64,000 nt of DNA from Octopus vulgaris (Eukaryota): positions 26,040,001-26,104,000 of the forward strand of contig OX597825.1 in NCBI GenBank assembly GCA_951406725.2, read 5' to 3'. Position numbers: made by a program. Positions 1-36,000 of this stretch are shown piece after piece (position 1 is the first letter of the stretch; each line of letters starts with the position of its first letter).

Positions 1-3000
1 CGTAACGTAGCGGTTCGGCAAAAAGAGACGATAGAATAAGTACTGGATTTATAAAGAATATGTCCTCGGGTCATTATATATATATATATATATAAGTTGC
101 TATTAAAAGAATCCCGTCGTATATACATACGACGGGATTCTTTCAGTTTCCGTCTACCAAACCCACTCACATGGCTTTGGTCGGCTCGAGGCTATAGTAG
201 AAGACACTTTCCCAAGGTGCCACGCAGTGGAACTGAACCCGGAACCATGTCGTTGGTAAGCAGGCTACTTACCACACAGCCACTCCTGCGCCTTTTATGT
301 GTTTGTGTTATGTGTAGTATTGCGTATTCAGAAAAGCGATGTTGAAGAATGGTTCGACACTGCATATGATAAACGTATTGGGAAATGGGACGTAATTTAA
401 TGTCTTGCTTTTTGCTCGGAAAGAGATGGAGTGGGTCACCAGCATTTTAGAGAGGCTCCGTGTGGAGTGGGAGGGAAAGTGAAAGGTATTTAACACTGGG
501 GATCTGGCAACAATTCTTGCAAGAAGCTGAGTGCTATCAAAGTCAGTGAAAGTATCAAGCGGCGGTACTTAACCTGAAGTCATATGCAATGGAAGGGGTC
601 GCAATCAAAGATACTGTGGTGGGAGCTGCGCTGAGAAAGACCAAAAAAATGTCTGGATTATATACCGAAAAACATTCTACCGTTTCAGCCAGTTGACCTT
701 CTTATAAGGTGTTTTTAATTGTAGGACCAGGTACGATTGCAATTAAATTTGGCATTGGCGGTTTGAGATCATAGAAAATCGGAATAAAAACCCTAATGCA
801 TTGCGTCTAACACTAACAGAAACACCAATATCCATTGTTCATATCTAGAGAAAATACCCTCATCGTATATATATTTTGGTGTTATGATATGAGTGGAGCG
901 TCAATTTCCCTCCTCTCTGTTTCGTTCTCTTCCTCTCTCTCTCTAGCGGTGTAAAGTTATTGCATATACCAATTTACATATTAAACGCATCCCTAGAAGC
1001 TGGTACGTTAATACAAATGACTGGTAGGTACGTGGTATTCCGTTATGCAACCGTAATATATCACAAAGTATGTTAAATGATTTTATAAAGGCGGTAAGCT
1101 GGCAGAAACGTTAGCACGTCGGGCGAAATGCGTAGCGGTATTTCGTCTGCCGGTACGTTCTGAGTTCAAATTCTGCTGAGGTCGAATTTGCCTTTCATCC
1201 TTTCGGGGTCGATTAAATAAGTACTAGTTACGCACTGGGGTGAATATAATCGACCTAATCTGTTTGTCTCTCCTTGTTTGTCCTCTCTGTGTTTAGCCCC
1301 TTGTGGGTAGTAAAGAAATAGGTATTTCGTCTGCCGGTACGTTCTGAGTTCAAATTCCACCGAGGTAGAGTTTGCCTTTCATCCTTTCGGGGTACCAGTT
1401 ACGCACTGGGGTCGATATAATCGACTTAATCCGTTTGTCTGTCCTTGTTTGTCCCCTCTACGTTTAGCCCATTGTGGGCAGTAAAGAAATAAGAAATCTT
1501 AGCACGTCGTGCGAAATGCTTAGCCGTATTTTGTCTGACTTTATGTTCTAAGTTCAACTTACACCGATGTCAACTTTGCCTTTCATCCTTTCGGGTTTGA
1601 TAAATTAAATACCAGTTGCGTACTGGAACCGATTTAATCGATTAAGTCCCTCCCCCGGAATTTGGGGCCTTGTGCCTAGAATAGAAAAGTGTATTAAACA
1701 TCATCATAAGTCAACATCATGTTCCACTGCGTCAACAGTGTGCTTTTACATTGTTGTTAAAGTTATTTCTGCAGATATTCTACAGAAATTCTGGCGGGCA
1801 CTGATTTTTGTTACGACCTTTCGTATATGTGACATCGGATGTAAAAAAAAATAGTATATCATGTTTACATAACGAAATTCGAAGCACCTACAAATCATTA
1901 CTGCACACACACACACACACACACGCACACACACACACACATATATATATATACGTATGTGTGAGTAAACATACATTCGTACATGTATATTATGTATATA
2001 TATACAAACACCTATATATGGACAGCCATATGCTAGAAATAGATCACCTACGATCAAACCACAAAGAAAAAATGTTCTCTAGAGAAAATTCAGCGGACAC
2101 CAGAACATTAGGCGGGCAATAATTTTCATGTTTTGCCCGCCTACTGTTCTGGTGTCCGCTGAATTTTCTCTAGAGAACATTTTTTCTTTGTGGTTTGATC
2201 GTAGGTGATCTATTTCTAGCATATGGCTGTCCATATAGTGGTTTTTAGCCCTTAAAATATACACATGTATTAGAATTTTCTATGAATTTTCAGATTTTTG
2301 TATGCTAGGCTACTGGTTTTAAATTCATATTAATTAAATTAATATTCAATTTATCTCCCTCATAATTTAAATGTTTTATATATATATATATATATATATA
2401 TATATATATATATATATATATATATATATATATATTTAAAAAAGGAGATGTGGAACACGAGTTGTGATATACAGAAAAATAGCACTTAGTGCACATATTG
2501 ATACCTGTGCCGCACAACTTCATCCCAATTTTAGAATCTTTCCCCTCTACAAATTTAAAGACAATGCCACTCATACCCAGCGAATAACCATGGAATCCCA
2601 ACCTTATTAATAAATACAGACCACTTCTAAACACATCCCCCTAACACGAACCCACAACAAACACACTTACACCTGCACACACCCTACACACACTTTTACC
2701 CAGATATTAACACCATGACACACGCAAATATATGGTTTCACACATACACATAATTTGATACGGGTGCAAAACATCCAACACTATTTTTTGGAAATGACTG
2801 TAAATATTGACTTCACACAAACACGTTGCTTCCCGATACAGGCACAAGTCCAGTAGAACTATAAATATTGAAAATTGTATCCACACACGCACACATATAT
2901 ACACGCGCGCGCGCCCCAATATACATATAAACACACACACACACACACACACGCGCACACATACATACATATAGCTCTTCCTGTCCTAAACGAACTTACT

Positions 3001-33000: not shown

Positions 33001-36000
33001 CGAACACAAACTATCGCTTATAACTCGAAATCAGTATCAGGCCATAGGTCTCGTCAATTAACTGAAGTATTTCTTTGGTAAGACTGGCAAGCGTAGATTT
33101 TATAGCATCCCTGCAGGATTAAGTTGCGTGCTGCTCGAGTTTACGTATTGTCGTAAAGTTATTGTTCCAGTGCAATGTTGAAGGCAACTAAAATGTTACA
33201 AGACCAATCGTAAATATTTATGAATATTTTCTTCTTTATGCCAGTGTAGGCTGTTTGTATAACAGTTGGGTGCTGAAGCCTATGAATGGCTGCTGTCACT
33301 TACGTTTCAATGTACATTGTTGCACCTAGCACACGGAAGTTTTAAAAACGTGGAACAAATTTATAACAAAATATAACGAATCACAGAACACACAGTAAAA
33401 ATATTGAAATCTTCTCCAGTACAGGTCAATAAGGCTCTCATATTAAGCCTAGATGGTAAATTATATTACTTTGGGACTTATATCATTTTATGAGACTCAC
33501 CTAACTACACTGTATTAGTAAATCTGTATTATCGATGAAATGCCAAAGTGTGTTTTAAAATATGTATGTATAAATACTATATTATGGAAAAGTCATATCA
33601 AACCGCTCACACGCTCTAGTTGTCAGCATAACTTAGCGGGGCCGATATGAATTTAATCAAAGTAATTTTATACGGTTTAATGTATACTCATGTTAACACA
33701 AACACAAAAGCGTAAAGCTAAAAATTTTAGATGATTCATTCCAGCCCAGTTCTAGTATATTAGTCAATATGCTGCAGGTCAGAAAGGTAACGTATTCTAT
33801 GCATTTTGAAGTCTATAAATAATGATACTAAAAAAGAGAAATAAAACAGTTTAGATTCTTACTGACATCAGTATCAGAACTAACTAAAAATTCATCCCGG
33901 ACCGTTACTTTCATTTATCGATGCTCGCATCAACAACCAACAACGAACCTGAACTAAATTATGTAAGACGCAATAGTCAAAAGTATTCATGGTTAATAGG
34001 ATGTCTTTCGCTTTTACTTTTTAATTTTCAAGGTTTTTTTTTGCATGTTTAAAATAAAGAACGTCCCGGCAATGTACTGACATGCATGCCGTGGTGCGAT
34101 TTCCTTGTACCATTTAGAATAAAATATATGGTAAATTAACTAAAACGAAAGTGTATTTATGTGAATTTTGAAATATGACCATGTTTCTTTTAATAATGGC
34201 TTTTTTACCGTTGCGATACTCAACCCTGTTTTTTTTATGGGATGTATCTATTGTCCTTTTATTTTATCCCCATTCCCACGTACGATTCTTCCATTTTTCT
34301 CTATCGTTATTAAGGTCGAAATTTATGTGTACATACAAGGCAACTATAAGTGCATCCTCTTCGCTATCATCCGATGTGTTTCTTATGTTATTTGCCCAAG
34401 TACTAGAAAGTAAATACAAATAACTTATGTATTGCAAAATTTACTTTTCTTATAGCTGTCAAATATTTCAGTTACGATTCTTTTGGAATTAATTCTACAC
34501 TTTGGATAAAAATTTTGCAATACATAAGTTATTTGTATTTACTTTCTAGTACTCTGATCTAGAAGCATGTATCATCACTAACTTTAGAAGGGAGAAGAGT
34601 GTTTCACGCAAAAATTCCAAATATGGGATATACGTATATATATATATATATATATATATATATATATATATATATATATATATATATATATATATATATA
34701 TATGCGCGTGTGTGTGTGTAATTAAGATTCAGTTGACTTAGGTATTTAAGTTGAAGCACCAAGTCAGTCTGGTATTATCTGCACAAATCGAAGTAAAGTG
34801 AATAACATCAAAATAAGCAACAGGATATCAAGTAATGATGCAGTACGACCATTTCAGTTTCAAGCGGCTACATTTAATTGAACAATGCAATCATTACATC
34901 TATTTAAATGTAGTGCCATCTTCAGCTGCACATATAAATAAATAGAATTTTAACCAGTCGGATACATTAATGGGTAAAATGTCAAAATGTGTGTATATAT
35001 CAATTATAATGCGTATATGTGTCAATTATAAACATTAAGAAGGAAGATTACATAGAATCAGTTTAATATTCATTCATGTATGTTAATTACCTGTTAAAGG
35101 CAAGATTATTTGAGAAAAGTTATATGAATGTGTCCAACTGCTTAAAATTCTGCTTATTTATTTGTGCAGCTGAATATGGCACTGCGTTTAAATTGATGTA
35201 ATGATTTGATTACATTGTTCAATTAAATGGAGCCGCTTGAAATGTTCGTACTTCATCACTACTTGATATCCGGTTGCTTATTTTGATTATATCTCGTATA
35301 TATATATATATATATATATATATATATATATATATATATATATATATATATAAGGATAAGATCTTTAATTTAAATATCGATCTTATCAAGTGGCCAGCAT
35401 GGAAAAAATCTTCAAAGGTAATAATTATTATTAAAATTATAATTTTTCAATCACACCTAGAATTTTCTCAGTAAAACGTTGCTTCTACCAACTACAATGG
35501 CTTAATATATTGTATTAGGGCTGATGTTCTGTCAGACGCATTGATTGACTGATACAGGGTAAACAATCCACCTAGGACAAAGAAACGAACTGTATTAAAA
35601 TGTGTCTGAAAAAATACGAATGCATATCCACATCATGCTGAAGAATGAAGGAATCACCCAACCATTTTGGAATCATAAAATAATATTCGATAAAGCCAAA
35701 CTAGAAATGGTTATACTTGAAACGTTTGTTATCAGAAGTAAGATCGATCCGGCTCTGGACGTCAACATCACATAATATTAGAAAATTCAACTTCGAAGCT
35801 AACGTTTGTGCTTAGGTATTTTATTATTTTACAATGTTTCACTGAGATTCATGTAGTTACATTCGTGATAAATAGAGGATGACATTGTGTCTGTCTGTTT
35901 TAGATACGAAGCGATATTATCCATTAATAAGAAGACAGTGGAGATAAACAAAAGACGATTAATTTAAATGTTGCCTCAGTTTATCACAAGGCCGTAATAA

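What the first reader, a model, noticed from the sequence alone, without database searches (positions are those of the whole stretch)
2015..35296. Recurring (TA)n - inverted PLE terminus - (TA)n cassettes from unrelated families
Seen: four unrelated sequences share one layout, an inverted repeat bounded by TA-rich microsatellite (2015-2237, 23167-23298, 24467-25197, 34807-35288). Three have hammerhead-like cores pointing outward on both strands. Other PLE pieces (2440-3612, 4718-5345, 45895-46105, 56525-56996) also start or end next to microsatellites. Known: PLEs often leave inverted pseudo-LTRs. Inference: (TA)n-targeted PLE integration with fold-back second-strand synthesis generates short non-autonomous hairpin elements at high density; in an intron these would form long dsRNA, relevant to the extensive ADAR editing of coleoid cephalopods.
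Basis: partly seen in the sequence, partly recalled or inferred. Interest (0 to 1): 0.75.

Follow-up and report, generated by a model that had tools for sequence, protein, structure and literature searches.

The report
Hairpin insertions beside (TA)n microsatellites

Summary
The layout is real. Four mutually unrelated, non-coding palindromes (2006-2246, 23157-23306, 24459-25205, 34807-35287) have equal-length arms and almost no loop. Each has a (TA)n tract 2-53 bp from one end and 69-131 bp from the other. That holds for 4 of 8 palindromes in the window, against 0 of 24 SINE/LINE copies.

The hammerhead claim fails. Rfam gives nothing at gathering level, and the best sub-threshold match scores 12 bits against a cut-off of 52. 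Four descriptor scans find no hammerhead in any element.

The Penelope-like element (PLE) label is unproven. No arm carries RT or endonuclease remnants, and no eukaryotic repeat library or genome could be searched. Another (TA)n-bounded insert is an RTE-type LINE. A fifth palindrome, with (TA)16 at its centre, lies next to a LINE ORF2 remnant.

PLE remains a fair candidate. Published octopus Naiad and Hydra PLE consensi list (TA)n as their insertion preference. One cassette also has a 31-bp tail-like extension and end similarity to a non-palindromic insert that lacks terminal inverted repeats.

Best reading (0.42): snap-back retro-insertions at (TA)n. Main rival (0.30): TA-targeting foldback or MITE DNA transposons. 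The ADAR link was not tested.

The parts
2006..2246 (.). Cassette 1 palindrome. Arms are 118/119 nt and the central loop is about 4-13 nt. Arm JC distance is 0.044.
2247..2376 (.). Cassette 1 one-sided non-palindromic extension (130 bp), lying between the palindrome and (TA)29 at 2377-2435. On the other side an imperfect TA-rich stretch (1941-2005) abuts the palindrome.
23157..23306 (.). Cassette 2 palindrome. Arms are 76/74 nt with no loop, and the centre is a 10-nt self-complementary site. Arm JC is 0.028. CTGATGA...GAAAC strings occur on both strands, but helix II has only 3 bp closed by a U-U.
23307..23374 (.). Cassette 2 one-sided extension (about 68 bp) before the (TA)n tract at 23375-23534. 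On the other side (TA)23 at 23100-23145 lies 12 bp from the palindrome.
24428..24458 (.). Cassette 3 extension of 31 bp, between (TA)n(TG)n at 24224-24427 and the palindrome. It is tail-like. It resembles the left end of the insert at 2436-3613.
   Evidence: score 19 against a maximum of 16 in 6000 random windows
24459..25205 (.). Cassette 3 palindrome. Arms are 374/376 nt and arm JC is 0.147. (TA)22 follows directly at 25207-25251. Each arm holds a string resembling half a hammerhead, 53-60 nt from its outer end.
34720..34806 (.). Cassette 4 one-sided extension (87 bp) after (TA)34 at 34635-34703 and a short GC/TG run.
34807..35287 (.). Cassette 4 palindrome. Arms are 239/240 nt and arm JC is 0.174. 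(TA)28 at 35297-35352 starts 10 bp after it. There is no 2-10 bp target-site duplication.
29613..30061 (.). (TA)16 lies at its centre (29819-29850) and arm JC is 0.010. Its left arm continues the reading frame of a LINE ORF2 C-terminal remnant whose zinc-finger match lies just upstream, inside ORF 29428-29649.
34399..34553 (.). Palindrome of 155 bp, 82 bp upstream of the same (TA)34 that precedes cassette 4. There is no TA tract on its other side.
4733..4790 (.). Small hairpin with arms of about 21-27 nt. It sits at the upstream end of a PLE-like ORF remnant (about 4770-5190, + strand), and its right arm is part of that coding remnant.
   Evidence: The PLE identity is recalled and not tool-verified.
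106..143 (.). A 38-bp palindrome centred on the internal TA tract of a SINE-A copy. Its arms are internal SINE sequence, not a terminus.
2436..3613 (+). Non-coding insert of 1178 bp between (TA)29 and (TA)16. It has no terminal inverted repeat. Both its ends resemble the ends of cassette 3.
44972..45627 (-). RTE-type LINE 3' fragment, 5'-truncated, between (TA)23 and (TA)55. Its ORF ends about 11 bp from the (TA)23.

Best explanation
The four cassettes are independent, mutually unrelated, non-coding fold-back insertions of different ages. Each occupies the space between two (TA)n tracts as one unit: a palindrome centred to within 2 nt, plus a non-palindromic extension of 31-130 bp on one side only.

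I think they are most likely heavily 5'-truncated retroelement copies made by target-primed reverse transcription at a nick in or beside (TA)n. In this reading the growing cDNA snapped back on itself at the truncation point, or two cDNAs primed from the two target strands annealed at a short self-complementary site, and was copied back. That mirrors the copy and points both 3' ends outward toward the microsatellite. One arm would start at the true RNA 3' end, giving the extension. The other arm would start at an internal TATA run that can pair with the (TA)n primer.

Which retroelement did this is not established. A Penelope-like element is the leading candidate, and a LINE is the alternative.

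Shown: the palindromes, their symmetry, the specific (TA)n association, the one-sided extensions, the absence of hammerheads, of coding remnants and (in cassettes 2 and 4) of target-site duplications, and the lack of terminal inverted repeats in the one related non-palindromic insert.

Inferred: the RNA intermediate, the snap-back step, internal priming at TATA, and the element family.
For: (1) Symmetry. Arm pairs of 118/119, 76/74, 374/376 and 239/240 nt with loops of 0-4 nt between the innermost aligned pairs are not expected from two independent truncated insertions. Cassette 2 is centred on a 10-nt self-complementary site.

(2) Specific (TA)n association. It holds for 4 of 8 palindromes against 0 of 24 SINE/LINE copies. 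The far-side tract at 69-131 bp implies that the unit includes the extension.

(3) Ends shared with a non-palindromic insert. The 31-bp extension of cassette 3 plus the first bases of its palindrome resemble the left end of the insert at 2436-3613 (score 19 against a maximum of 16 in 6000 random windows). Its outer arm ends weakly resemble that insert's right end (P = 0.045 and 0.0075; 46-nt blastn match, E = 1.9e-4). That insert has no terminal inverted repeat (P = 0.74). So the parent element has two different ends, as a retroelement does.

(4) Fit with published PLE anatomy. Craig et al. 2021 (passages) describe an inverted 5'-truncated copy next to the main copy, a 30-40 bp tail at one end and a (TA)n preference. 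Frangieh et al. 2024 (passages) report that a PLE protein cleaves and extends both target strands in vitro and starts reverse transcription at two nearby internal sites. All 5 cephalopod Naiad consensi and Hydra-1_Obim list (TA)n as insertion preference (supplement).

(5) Retro-insertion at (TA)n does occur in this window. The RTE-type LINE fragment at 44972-45627 is bounded by (TA)n on both sides.

(6) No transposase domain appears in the ORFs scanned: 50 of the 202 ORFs of 75 aa or more, and 150 of the 331 ORFs of 55 aa or more, all starting before 44.4 kb.

(7) No 2-10 bp target-site duplication flanks cassettes 2 and 4 (sequence read directly).
Against: No arm contains any RT or endonuclease remnant, and no arm was matched to any retroelement terminus.

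A profile built from the arms of cassette 3 alone does not recover the 2436-3613 insert. That relationship is therefore weak, and I noticed it post hoc.

Only one of the four extensions (31 bp) falls in the published 30-40 bp tail range. The others are about 68, 87 and 130 bp.

Six 11-14-nt strings from the arms are absent from the PLE consensi in the Craig et al. supplement. This is a weak negative, because it needs exact matches and the lines are wrapped.

Cephalopod Naiads are described as long inactive, whereas cassettes 1 and 2 are young (JC 0.03-0.04).

AT-rich, almost fully palindromic elements of 150-750 bp are the usual look of MITEs. In cassettes 1 and 3 the palindrome core has a TA run directly on both sides, as for TA-targeting DNA transposons. 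Plant SaTar arrays of unrelated TA-flanked inverted-repeat elements look much the same.

Two TA-centred palindromes (29613-30061 and 106-143) show that some palindromes here form in other ways.
Confidence: 0.42

Rival explanations
1. The cassettes are non-autonomous DNA transposons (MITE or foldback type) whose transposase prefers TA or (TA)n targets. They would be either Tc1/mariner-derived palindromic MITEs or Mutator-like elements comparable to the plant SaTar, Micron, MuTAnT and TAFTA elements. The hairpin would then be the element's own long terminal inverted repeats. The extension on one side would be ordinary flanking DNA.
For: The cassettes are nearly full-length inverted repeats, AT-rich, non-coding and 150-750 bp long.

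In cassettes 1 and 3 a TA run touches the palindrome core on both sides.

Valdes Franco et al. 2018 (PMC5907723, passages) describe arrays of unrelated inverted-repeat elements of 380-1700 bp, each flanked by (TA)n and often without target-site duplications. They also cite TA tracts expanding after insertion. The stretch 21857-25251 here is such a TA-punctuated chain.

The Octopus vulgaris repeat annotation lists recently active Tc1-Mariner, Mutator and MITE families (PMC13282606, Table 1 passage).
Against: Cassettes 2 and 4 have no TA or 2-10 bp duplication at their ends.

Every cassette has a non-palindromic 31-130 bp stretch between the palindrome and the far TA tract.

The extension of cassette 3 is itself similar to the end of another TA-bounded insert that has no terminal inverted repeat.

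No second copy of any cassette occurs in the 64 kb. No transposase domain was found in the ORFs scanned. The last two points are weak, because families of a few hundred copies would not recur in 64 kb.
Confidence: 0.3
2. The cassettes are element-independent inverted duplications caused by fragile, self-complementary (TA)n tracts. A stalled fork or a break at (TA)n is repaired by fold-back or template switching at TATA microhomology, which mirrors whatever sequence lay next to the tract.
For: Two palindromes in the window are centred on a TA tract and are built from sequence that is not an element terminus.

In the first, 29613-30061, the left arm runs on in frame from a LINE ORF2 remnant (zf-RVT, E = 1.7e-4, 22.6 bits, below the 27.5 cut-off). 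Its arms differ at 2 of 203 positions.

The second, 106-143, mirrors about 18 nt of internal SINE-A sequence around that SINE's own TA tract, and the SINE's 3' half is missing.

This reading would explain why the four cassettes are unrelated and single-copy in the window. TATA runs sit at the palindrome/flank boundaries of cassettes 1-3.
Against: The four cassettes have their TA tracts outside and non-TA centres. Simple fold-back at a TA hairpin produces the opposite geometry.

The similarity of both ends of cassette 3 to the 2436-3613 insert is not expected for a duplication of unique DNA.

Palindromic inserts of hundreds of bp are larger than typical templated repair insertions (recalled, not checked).
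Confidence: 0.15
3. One reading: the arms are Penelope-like pseudo-LTR termini that carry hammerhead ribozymes pointing outward.
For: Half-core strings exist. In cassette 3, GAAAC followed by a short self-complementary stretch and a GUA triplet occurs in both arms. Its layout aligns to Rfam Hammerhead_HH9. Craig et al. annotate 'HHR_half_core' for Naiad_Ovul and Naiad_Esco. The (TA)n preference and inverted copies are PLE traits.
Against: There are 0 Rfam matches at gathering score.

The cassette 3 arm scores 12.1 bits against a cut-off of 52 (E = 1.3-2.6 even in searches of 81-167 nt), and both arms read TTGAAAA where the core needs CTGANGA.

No hammerhead family appears at E <= 10 in cassette 2, one arm each of cassettes 4 and 1, or 45895-46104.

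Four descriptor scans (strict type I, relaxed type I, minimal PLE type, generalised Hydra type) give 0 hits inside any element, and window-wide counts equal those of shuffles.

CTGANGA occurs 14 times on both strands, against about 22 expected from base composition (my arithmetic).
Confidence: 0.1
4. The youngest, near-perfect palindromes (cassettes 1 and 2, and 29613-30061) are assembly or read artefacts at hairpin-prone TA tracts.
For: The arms are 96-99% identical with a loop of zero or consisting only of TA.
Against: The arms do carry substitutions and indels. Cassettes 3 and 4 have diverged by 13-16%. The palindromes are short and internal to the sequence. No N or gap is nearby.
Confidence: 0.03

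Closest known systems
Penelope-like element insertions, especially the (TA)n-preferring Naiad and Hydra clades (Craig et al. 2021, PMC8557442; Frangieh et al. 2024, PMC11167929)
   Same: Both have a (TA)n insertion preference, documented for Octopus consensi. Both show an inverted 5'-truncated copy abutting the direct copy. A short extra 'tail' occurs at one end only. Hammerheads are absent or present as a half core (Naiads).
   Different: The published structures are kb-scale, with an ORF and a pseudo-LTR. Here there are only 75-375-nt arms with no ORF. The two copies are exactly equal in length. Three of the four extensions are longer than 30-40 bp. No arm was matched to a PLE.
Plant TA-microsatellite-targeting Mutator-like elements: SaTar, Micron, MuTAnT, TAFTA (PMC5907723 passages; PMC4486113 abstract only)
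   Same: They are small non-coding elements with long imperfect inverted repeats, flanked by (TA)n. Unrelated families are strung together between microsatellites, and target-site duplications are often missing.
   Different: Those elements are from plants, have inverted repeats at both extreme ends and recur as multi-copy families. Here one end has a non-palindromic extension and the copy number is unknown.
Palindromic MITEs derived from Tc1/mariner elements with a TA target site (recalled, from no call)
   Same: The whole element is a hairpin, AT-rich, and associated with TA.
   Different: No TA duplication flanks cassettes 2 and 4. The termini show no recognisable Tc1/mariner start.
Microsatellite-specific or microsatellite-tailed LINEs, and twin-priming inversions of LINE-1 (recalled, from no call)
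   Same: Retro-insertion is tied to simple repeats, and inverted 5' segments are produced during target-primed reverse transcription. The window itself holds an RTE-type LINE fragment bounded by (TA)n.
   Different: Twin priming gives an inversion of different parts of the element, not a mirror copy of the same part.
Type I / minimal hammerhead ribozymes of metazoan retroelements (Cervera and de la Pena 2014, PMC4209133)
   Same: Cassette 3 has GAAAC, a short self-complementary helix-III stretch and a GUA triplet in the right order.
   Different: The CUGANGA box is mutated at two essential positions in both arms. Helix II is missing or mismatched. The score lies far below threshold.

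Membership tests
Penelope-like element (PLE) insertion | PLE-type reverse transcriptase and GIY-YIG endonuclease ORF, or remnants of it, in or joined to the unit | tested here: not met
   No Pfam domain appears in any ORF overlapping the four cassettes. The only RVT_1 hit in the window (6152-7879, minus strand) belongs to a LINE whose 3' end matches SINE A. The remnant at 4770-5190 looks PLE-like to me from recall only. Pfam, PDB, homologue and Atlas searches of its pieces gave nothing.
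Penelope-like element (PLE) insertion | Arms match the terminus (pseudo-LTR) of a PLE consensus | not testable with these tools
   No eukaryotic genome or repeat library is on hand. Six exact 11-14-nt arm strings are absent from the consensi in the Craig et al. supplement. This is a weak negative.
Penelope-like element (PLE) insertion | Inverted 5'-truncated copy adjacent to a direct copy | tested here: met
   All four cassettes are head-to-head mirror copies. Other families share this feature.
Penelope-like element (PLE) insertion | Optional 30-40 bp tail at one end of the unit | tested here: inconclusive
   Cassette 3 has a 31-bp one-sided extension. The others have about 68, 87 and 130 bp.
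Penelope-like element (PLE) insertion | Microsatellite, here (TA)n, insertion bias | tested here: met
   Met by 4 of 8 palindromes against 0 of 24 SINE/LINE copies. The literature records this preference for Octopus Naiad and Hydra consensi.
Hammerhead ribozyme (type I, minimal PLE type, Hydra type) | CUGANGA and GAAA core boxes with helices I, II and III in register | tested here: not met
   Rfam: 0 matches at gathering score. The best sub-threshold match is 12.1 bits against 52. No hammerhead appears at E <= 10. Descriptor scans give 0 hits inside any element.
MITE / foldback DNA transposon | Terminal inverted repeats at both extreme ends | tested here: inconclusive
   The palindromes themselves qualify. 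If the unit runs from TA tract to TA tract, one end is non-palindromic.
MITE / foldback DNA transposon | Target-site duplication of a superfamily-specific length | tested here: not met
   Cassettes 2 and 4 have no matching 2-10 bp flanks. Cassettes 1 and 3 cannot be scored, because the flanks are TA repeats.
MITE / foldback DNA transposon | Multi-copy family with conserved ends | not testable with these tools
   Each cassette is single-copy within the 64 kb. The rest of the genome is not available.
Non-LTR (LINE) retro-insertion at (TA)n | APE-type endonuclease plus RT lineage, 5' truncation, 3' end at the repeat | tested here: met
   This is met only for 44972-45627, not for the cassettes. 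P0002 has 70 homologues, the best at E = 3e-45, carrying RVT_1 with or without Exo_endo_phos. The ORF ends about 11 bp from (TA)23.

The most novel reading that the evidence does not exclude
(TA)n tracts in this cephalopod genome act as landing pads. There, truncated cDNAs of unrelated retroelements (PLE and LINE alike) are converted by snap-back synthesis into locus-unique, near-perfect hairpins. These would not be transposon families but one-off 'retro-hairpins'. They would have been produced repeatedly, because arm divergence runs from 0.03 to 0.17, at a density of about one per 10 kb. That would continually seed introns with long double-stranded-RNA-forming sequence.
Probability: 0.2. Interest if true: 0.65.

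Novelty: new member of a known kind. Interest (0 to 1): 0.35.

Why it matters
If these are snap-back retro-insertions, they would be a compact record of how PLE or LINE integration resolves at self-complementary microsatellites. That mechanism is still poorly understood. It would also explain part of the unusual density of hairpins and TA microsatellites in cephalopod genomes.

If transcribed, stems of 75-375 bp would be plausible ADAR and small-RNA substrates. Predicted folds range from -99 to -409 kcal/mol. Inverted repeats are already known to be the main editing substrate across animals (Porath et al. 2017, PMC5625713, abstract in a search listing only). So this point alone is not special to cephalopods.

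If they are TA-targeting MITEs, they are ordinary. Their only interest would be as animal counterparts of the plant SaTar and Micron elements.

Tried and rejected
- The raw inverted-repeat search was swamped by TA low-complexity pairs (540 pairs), so I replaced it with a filtered self-BLAST.
- Rfam in E-value mode on the whole window gave 305 matches. The 150 listed are microRNA families hitting microsatellites or hairpins. The 155 lower-scoring rows were not shown, so I cannot say none is a hammerhead. I searched single arms instead.
- The many plant microRNA 'matches' to cassette 2 are generic long-hairpin hits, all below gathering score.
- A fixed-spacing motif search for the shared left-end motif found only 2 unrelated sites.
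- The AACCGGTA box shared by cassette 3, the 2436-3613 insert and 56664 occurs 5 times against 1.29 expected. Two of those are the arms of one element, so the excess is too weak to use.
- An nhmmer profile that included the 2436-3613 end is circular. The profile from the cassette 3 arms alone finds nothing else.
- The PLE identity of 4770-5190 gave no usable hit in any search: Pfam at E <= 10, word-indexed homologue search of 4940-5089, PDB and Atlas.
- A homologue search of the LINE remnant 29428-29649 found nothing. Only Pfam zf-RVT below cut-off and an Atlas lead at 0.86 support it.
- The terminal-inverted-repeat test on 10 non-palindromic TA-bounded inserts gave 0 at P < 0.02.
- The 12-nt identity between cassette 3 and the SINE-A/LINE 3' motif is about what chance allows (my estimate, 0.04).
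- I considered and rejected piggyBac-like ends for cassette 1, because the orientation is wrong.
- Not used: structure or complex prediction, the representative-protein search (query pieces of 32-50 aa could not reach significance), and the prokaryote, phage, plasmid and E. coli collections (irrelevant to an animal window).
- The closed collections (metagenome and viral contigs) were not touched.

Full report
THE WINDOW

The window is 64 kb, 66% A+T, without N, and extremely rich in microsatellites. It holds 80 perfect (TA)>=6 tracts (4.1% of bases), which merge into 55 loci. Tandem Repeats Finder reports 99 rows.

Interspersed repeats are abundant. A tRNA-type SINE of about 430 bp ('A') carries an internal (TA)n(TG)n tract. 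A second SINE of about 240 bp ('B') shows clear target-site duplications. A third family also recurs.

An intact 575-aa RVT_1 ORF lies at 6152-7879 on the minus strand. Its 3' end matches the 3' end of SINE A. The SINE sequences look octopus-like to me (recall), and an Atlas lead points to Mollusca. I did not otherwise verify the organism or the claimed intron location.

THE OBSERVATION

A low-complexity-filtered self-comparison confirms all four palindromes at almost the stated coordinates. I set aside two more (59783-59935 and 60613-60768) because they are TA-rich themselves.

The four cassettes are not related to each other or to anything else in the window. The exception is one short match between cassette 3 and 3581-3626.

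Their arms are equal in length to within 2 nt, and the innermost aligned pairs leave 0-4 nt. By eye, the central 25-30 nt of cassettes 3 and 4 pair poorly. Arm-to-arm Jukes-Cantor distances are 0.044, 0.028, 0.147 and 0.174, so the events differ in age.

THE (TA)n ASSOCIATION

'Bounded by TA-rich microsatellite' needs a qualification. In every cassette one end lies 2-53 bp from a (TA)>=6 tract. The other end is separated from the next tract by 69-131 bp of non-palindromic sequence.

The association is nonetheless real. Random placement gives both flanks that close with P = 0.014-0.027 per element. The condition is met by 4 of 8 palindromes and by 0 of 24 SINE/LINE copies, which gives a Fisher P of about 0.002 by my arithmetic. 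SINE B copies sit in ordinary AT-rich sites with their own target-site duplications. So (TA)n is not a general sink for every insertion here.

HAMMERHEADS

Rfam finds nothing at gathering score. I then searched short stretches at E <= 10, where the filters are laxest.
- Cassette 2 whole: 101 matches, none a hammerhead.
- 45895-46104: 1 match, not a hammerhead.
- One arm of cassette 4 and one arm of cassette 1: no hammerhead.
- One arm of cassette 3: Hammerhead_HH9 at 12.1 bits against a cut-off of 52, E = 2.6, or 1.3 in an 81-nt search.

The printed alignment shows a recognisable order of parts: helix I, core, helix II, GAAAC, a short self-complementary helix III, GUA. However, the core reads TTGAAAA in both arms, and helix II is mismatched.

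Four descriptor scans gave no hit in any element, and their window-wide counts do not differ from shuffles. They were a strict type I descriptor, a relaxed type I descriptor, the minimal PLE type of Cervera and de la Pena (PMC4209133, passages), and a generalised type that also covers the Hydra-clade layout printed in the Craig et al. supplement.

A CTGAAAC string is also part of the ordinary LINE/SINE-A 3' end here.

ARE THE ARMS PLE TERMINI?

Indirect evidence against:
- No coding remnant lies in any arm.
- Six arm strings are absent from the PLE consensi in the Craig et al. supplement (a weak test).
- Other TA-associated inserts are not PLEs. The fragment at 44972-45627 is a 5'-truncated RTE-type LINE whose ORF stops about 11 bp from (TA)23. 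The palindrome 29613-30061 has (TA)16 at its centre and runs on in frame from a LINE ORF2 zinc-finger remnant (zf-RVT, E = 1.7e-4, below cut-off).

Indirect evidence for:
- Craig et al. 2021 state that PLE insertions often carry an adjacent inverted 5'-truncated copy and a 30-40 bp tail at one end, and that Naiads prefer (TA)n.
- Their supplementary table lists (TA)n for all five cephalopod Naiad consensi and for Hydra-1_Obim. It notes 'HHR_half_core' for two of them.
- Frangieh et al. 2024 report cleavage and extension of both target strands, and two internal RT start sites that define the tail.
- Cassette 3 has a 31-bp one-sided extension. That extension and the first bases of the palindrome resemble the left end of the 1178-bp insert at 2436-3613 (P < 2e-4 against random windows). 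The outer arm ends weakly resemble that insert's right end (P = 0.045 and 0.0075).
- That insert has no terminal inverted repeat. So the parent element has unlike ends, as a retroelement does.
- This link is post hoc, and a profile of the arms alone does not recover it.
- A 58-bp hairpin at 4733-4790 caps the upstream end of what I recognise, from recall only, as a PLE ORF remnant.

MECHANISM

Equal arms with almost no loop argue against two independent truncated insertions. They favour a single mirrored synthesis. That could be a cDNA that snaps back and copies itself. It could also be two cDNAs primed on the two strands that anneal at a short self-complementary site, such as the 10-nt site at the centre of cassette 2.

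The one-sided extension and the TATA runs at the palindrome boundaries of cassettes 1-3 fit a model with two start points. One arm would start at the RNA's true 3' end. The other would start at an internal TATA that pairs with the (TA)n primer. All of this is inference.

RIVALS

The same anatomy is close to TA-targeting inverted-repeat DNA transposons. These include the plant SaTar, Micron, MuTAnT and TAFTA elements (I saw only the abstract of PMC4486113). Octopus genomes hold active Tc1-Mariner, Mutator and MITE families as well as Penelope, RTE and Dong-R4 (PMC13282606, passages).

The TA-centred palindromes at 29613-30061 and 106-143 show that fold-back at the self-complementary tract itself also happens here, independently of element termini.

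I therefore rate the readings as follows:
- snap-back retro-insertion: 0.42, with PLE as the maker in perhaps two thirds of that;
- foldback or MITE transposon: 0.30;
- element-independent inverted duplication: 0.15.

COMPARISON AND NOVELTY

(TA)n-preferring PLEs with inverted copies are published, including for Octopus. So are TA-microsatellite-targeted hairpin elements in plants.

What might be new is the extreme, ORF-less, exactly mirrored form and its density: 6 palindromes of 150 bp or more in 64 kb. My two literature searches on cephalopod repeats and on microsatellite-targeting elements listed no paper describing such cassettes in cephalopods. That is no proof of absence.

I did not read the supplements of the octopus repeat paper, and bioRxiv supplements are closed. 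A curated library there could settle the family question.

ADAR

Predicted folds are -99 to -409 kcal/mol. So the cassettes would form long double-stranded RNA if transcribed. Whether they are transcribed or edited was not tested.

Noticed in passing
window 6055-7879 (minus strand), and SINE A copies such as 21029-21446, 37066-37491, 63012-63440: An intact 575-aa reverse-transcriptase ORF belongs to a LINE that ends in an (ATCA)n tail. Its last 45 nt or so are homologous to the 3' end of the abundant SINE A. This looks like a LINE/SINE partner pair.
   Followed up: partly
window 21029-21446, 19097-19560, 51780-52160 and other SINE A copies: SINE A carries an internal (TA)n(TG)n microsatellite of very variable length. 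Part of the window's TA and TG tracts is therefore SINE-borne.
   Followed up: partly
window 1-293: A SINE A 3' half (plus strand, 1-72) and a SINE A head (minus strand, about 125-293) face each other across (TA)10 and an 18-nt fold-back. This looks like a rearrangement with breakpoints at the SINE's own TA tract.
   Followed up: partly
window 21857-25251: This is a chain of at least seven TA tracts separated by modules of 135-825 bp. The modules include a SINE A head and cassettes 2 and 3, and none is nested in another.
   Followed up: partly
window 40640-41715: A 364-bp unit is repeated three times in tandem (94% matches). An adjacent 187-bp direct repeat lies at 39957-40325.
   Followed up: no
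window 9775-10351, 11664-12032, 42078-42576, 32719-32951: There are very long tetra- and trinucleotide arrays: (TCTA)145, (ATT)123, (TATC)125 and (TATC)59.
   Followed up: no
window 58500-61700: About 3 kb consists of degenerate TA-rich microsatellite with many internal inverted matches. It is the source of most raw inverted-repeat pairs and of the mir-297-like Rfam noise.
   Followed up: no
window 37239-37489 / 38140-38393 and 42808-42887 / 43472-43551: Two spaced inverted-repeat pairs, with spacers of 650 and 584 bp. The first is two SINE A copies in opposite orientation. The second was not identified.
   Followed up: partly
window 3145-3417: The insert at 2436-3613 contains a 136-bp internal direct repeat with recurring CACGTGAC boxes, followed by a TATA-like box.
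   Followed up: no
I judged this by eye and did not test it.
   Followed up: no
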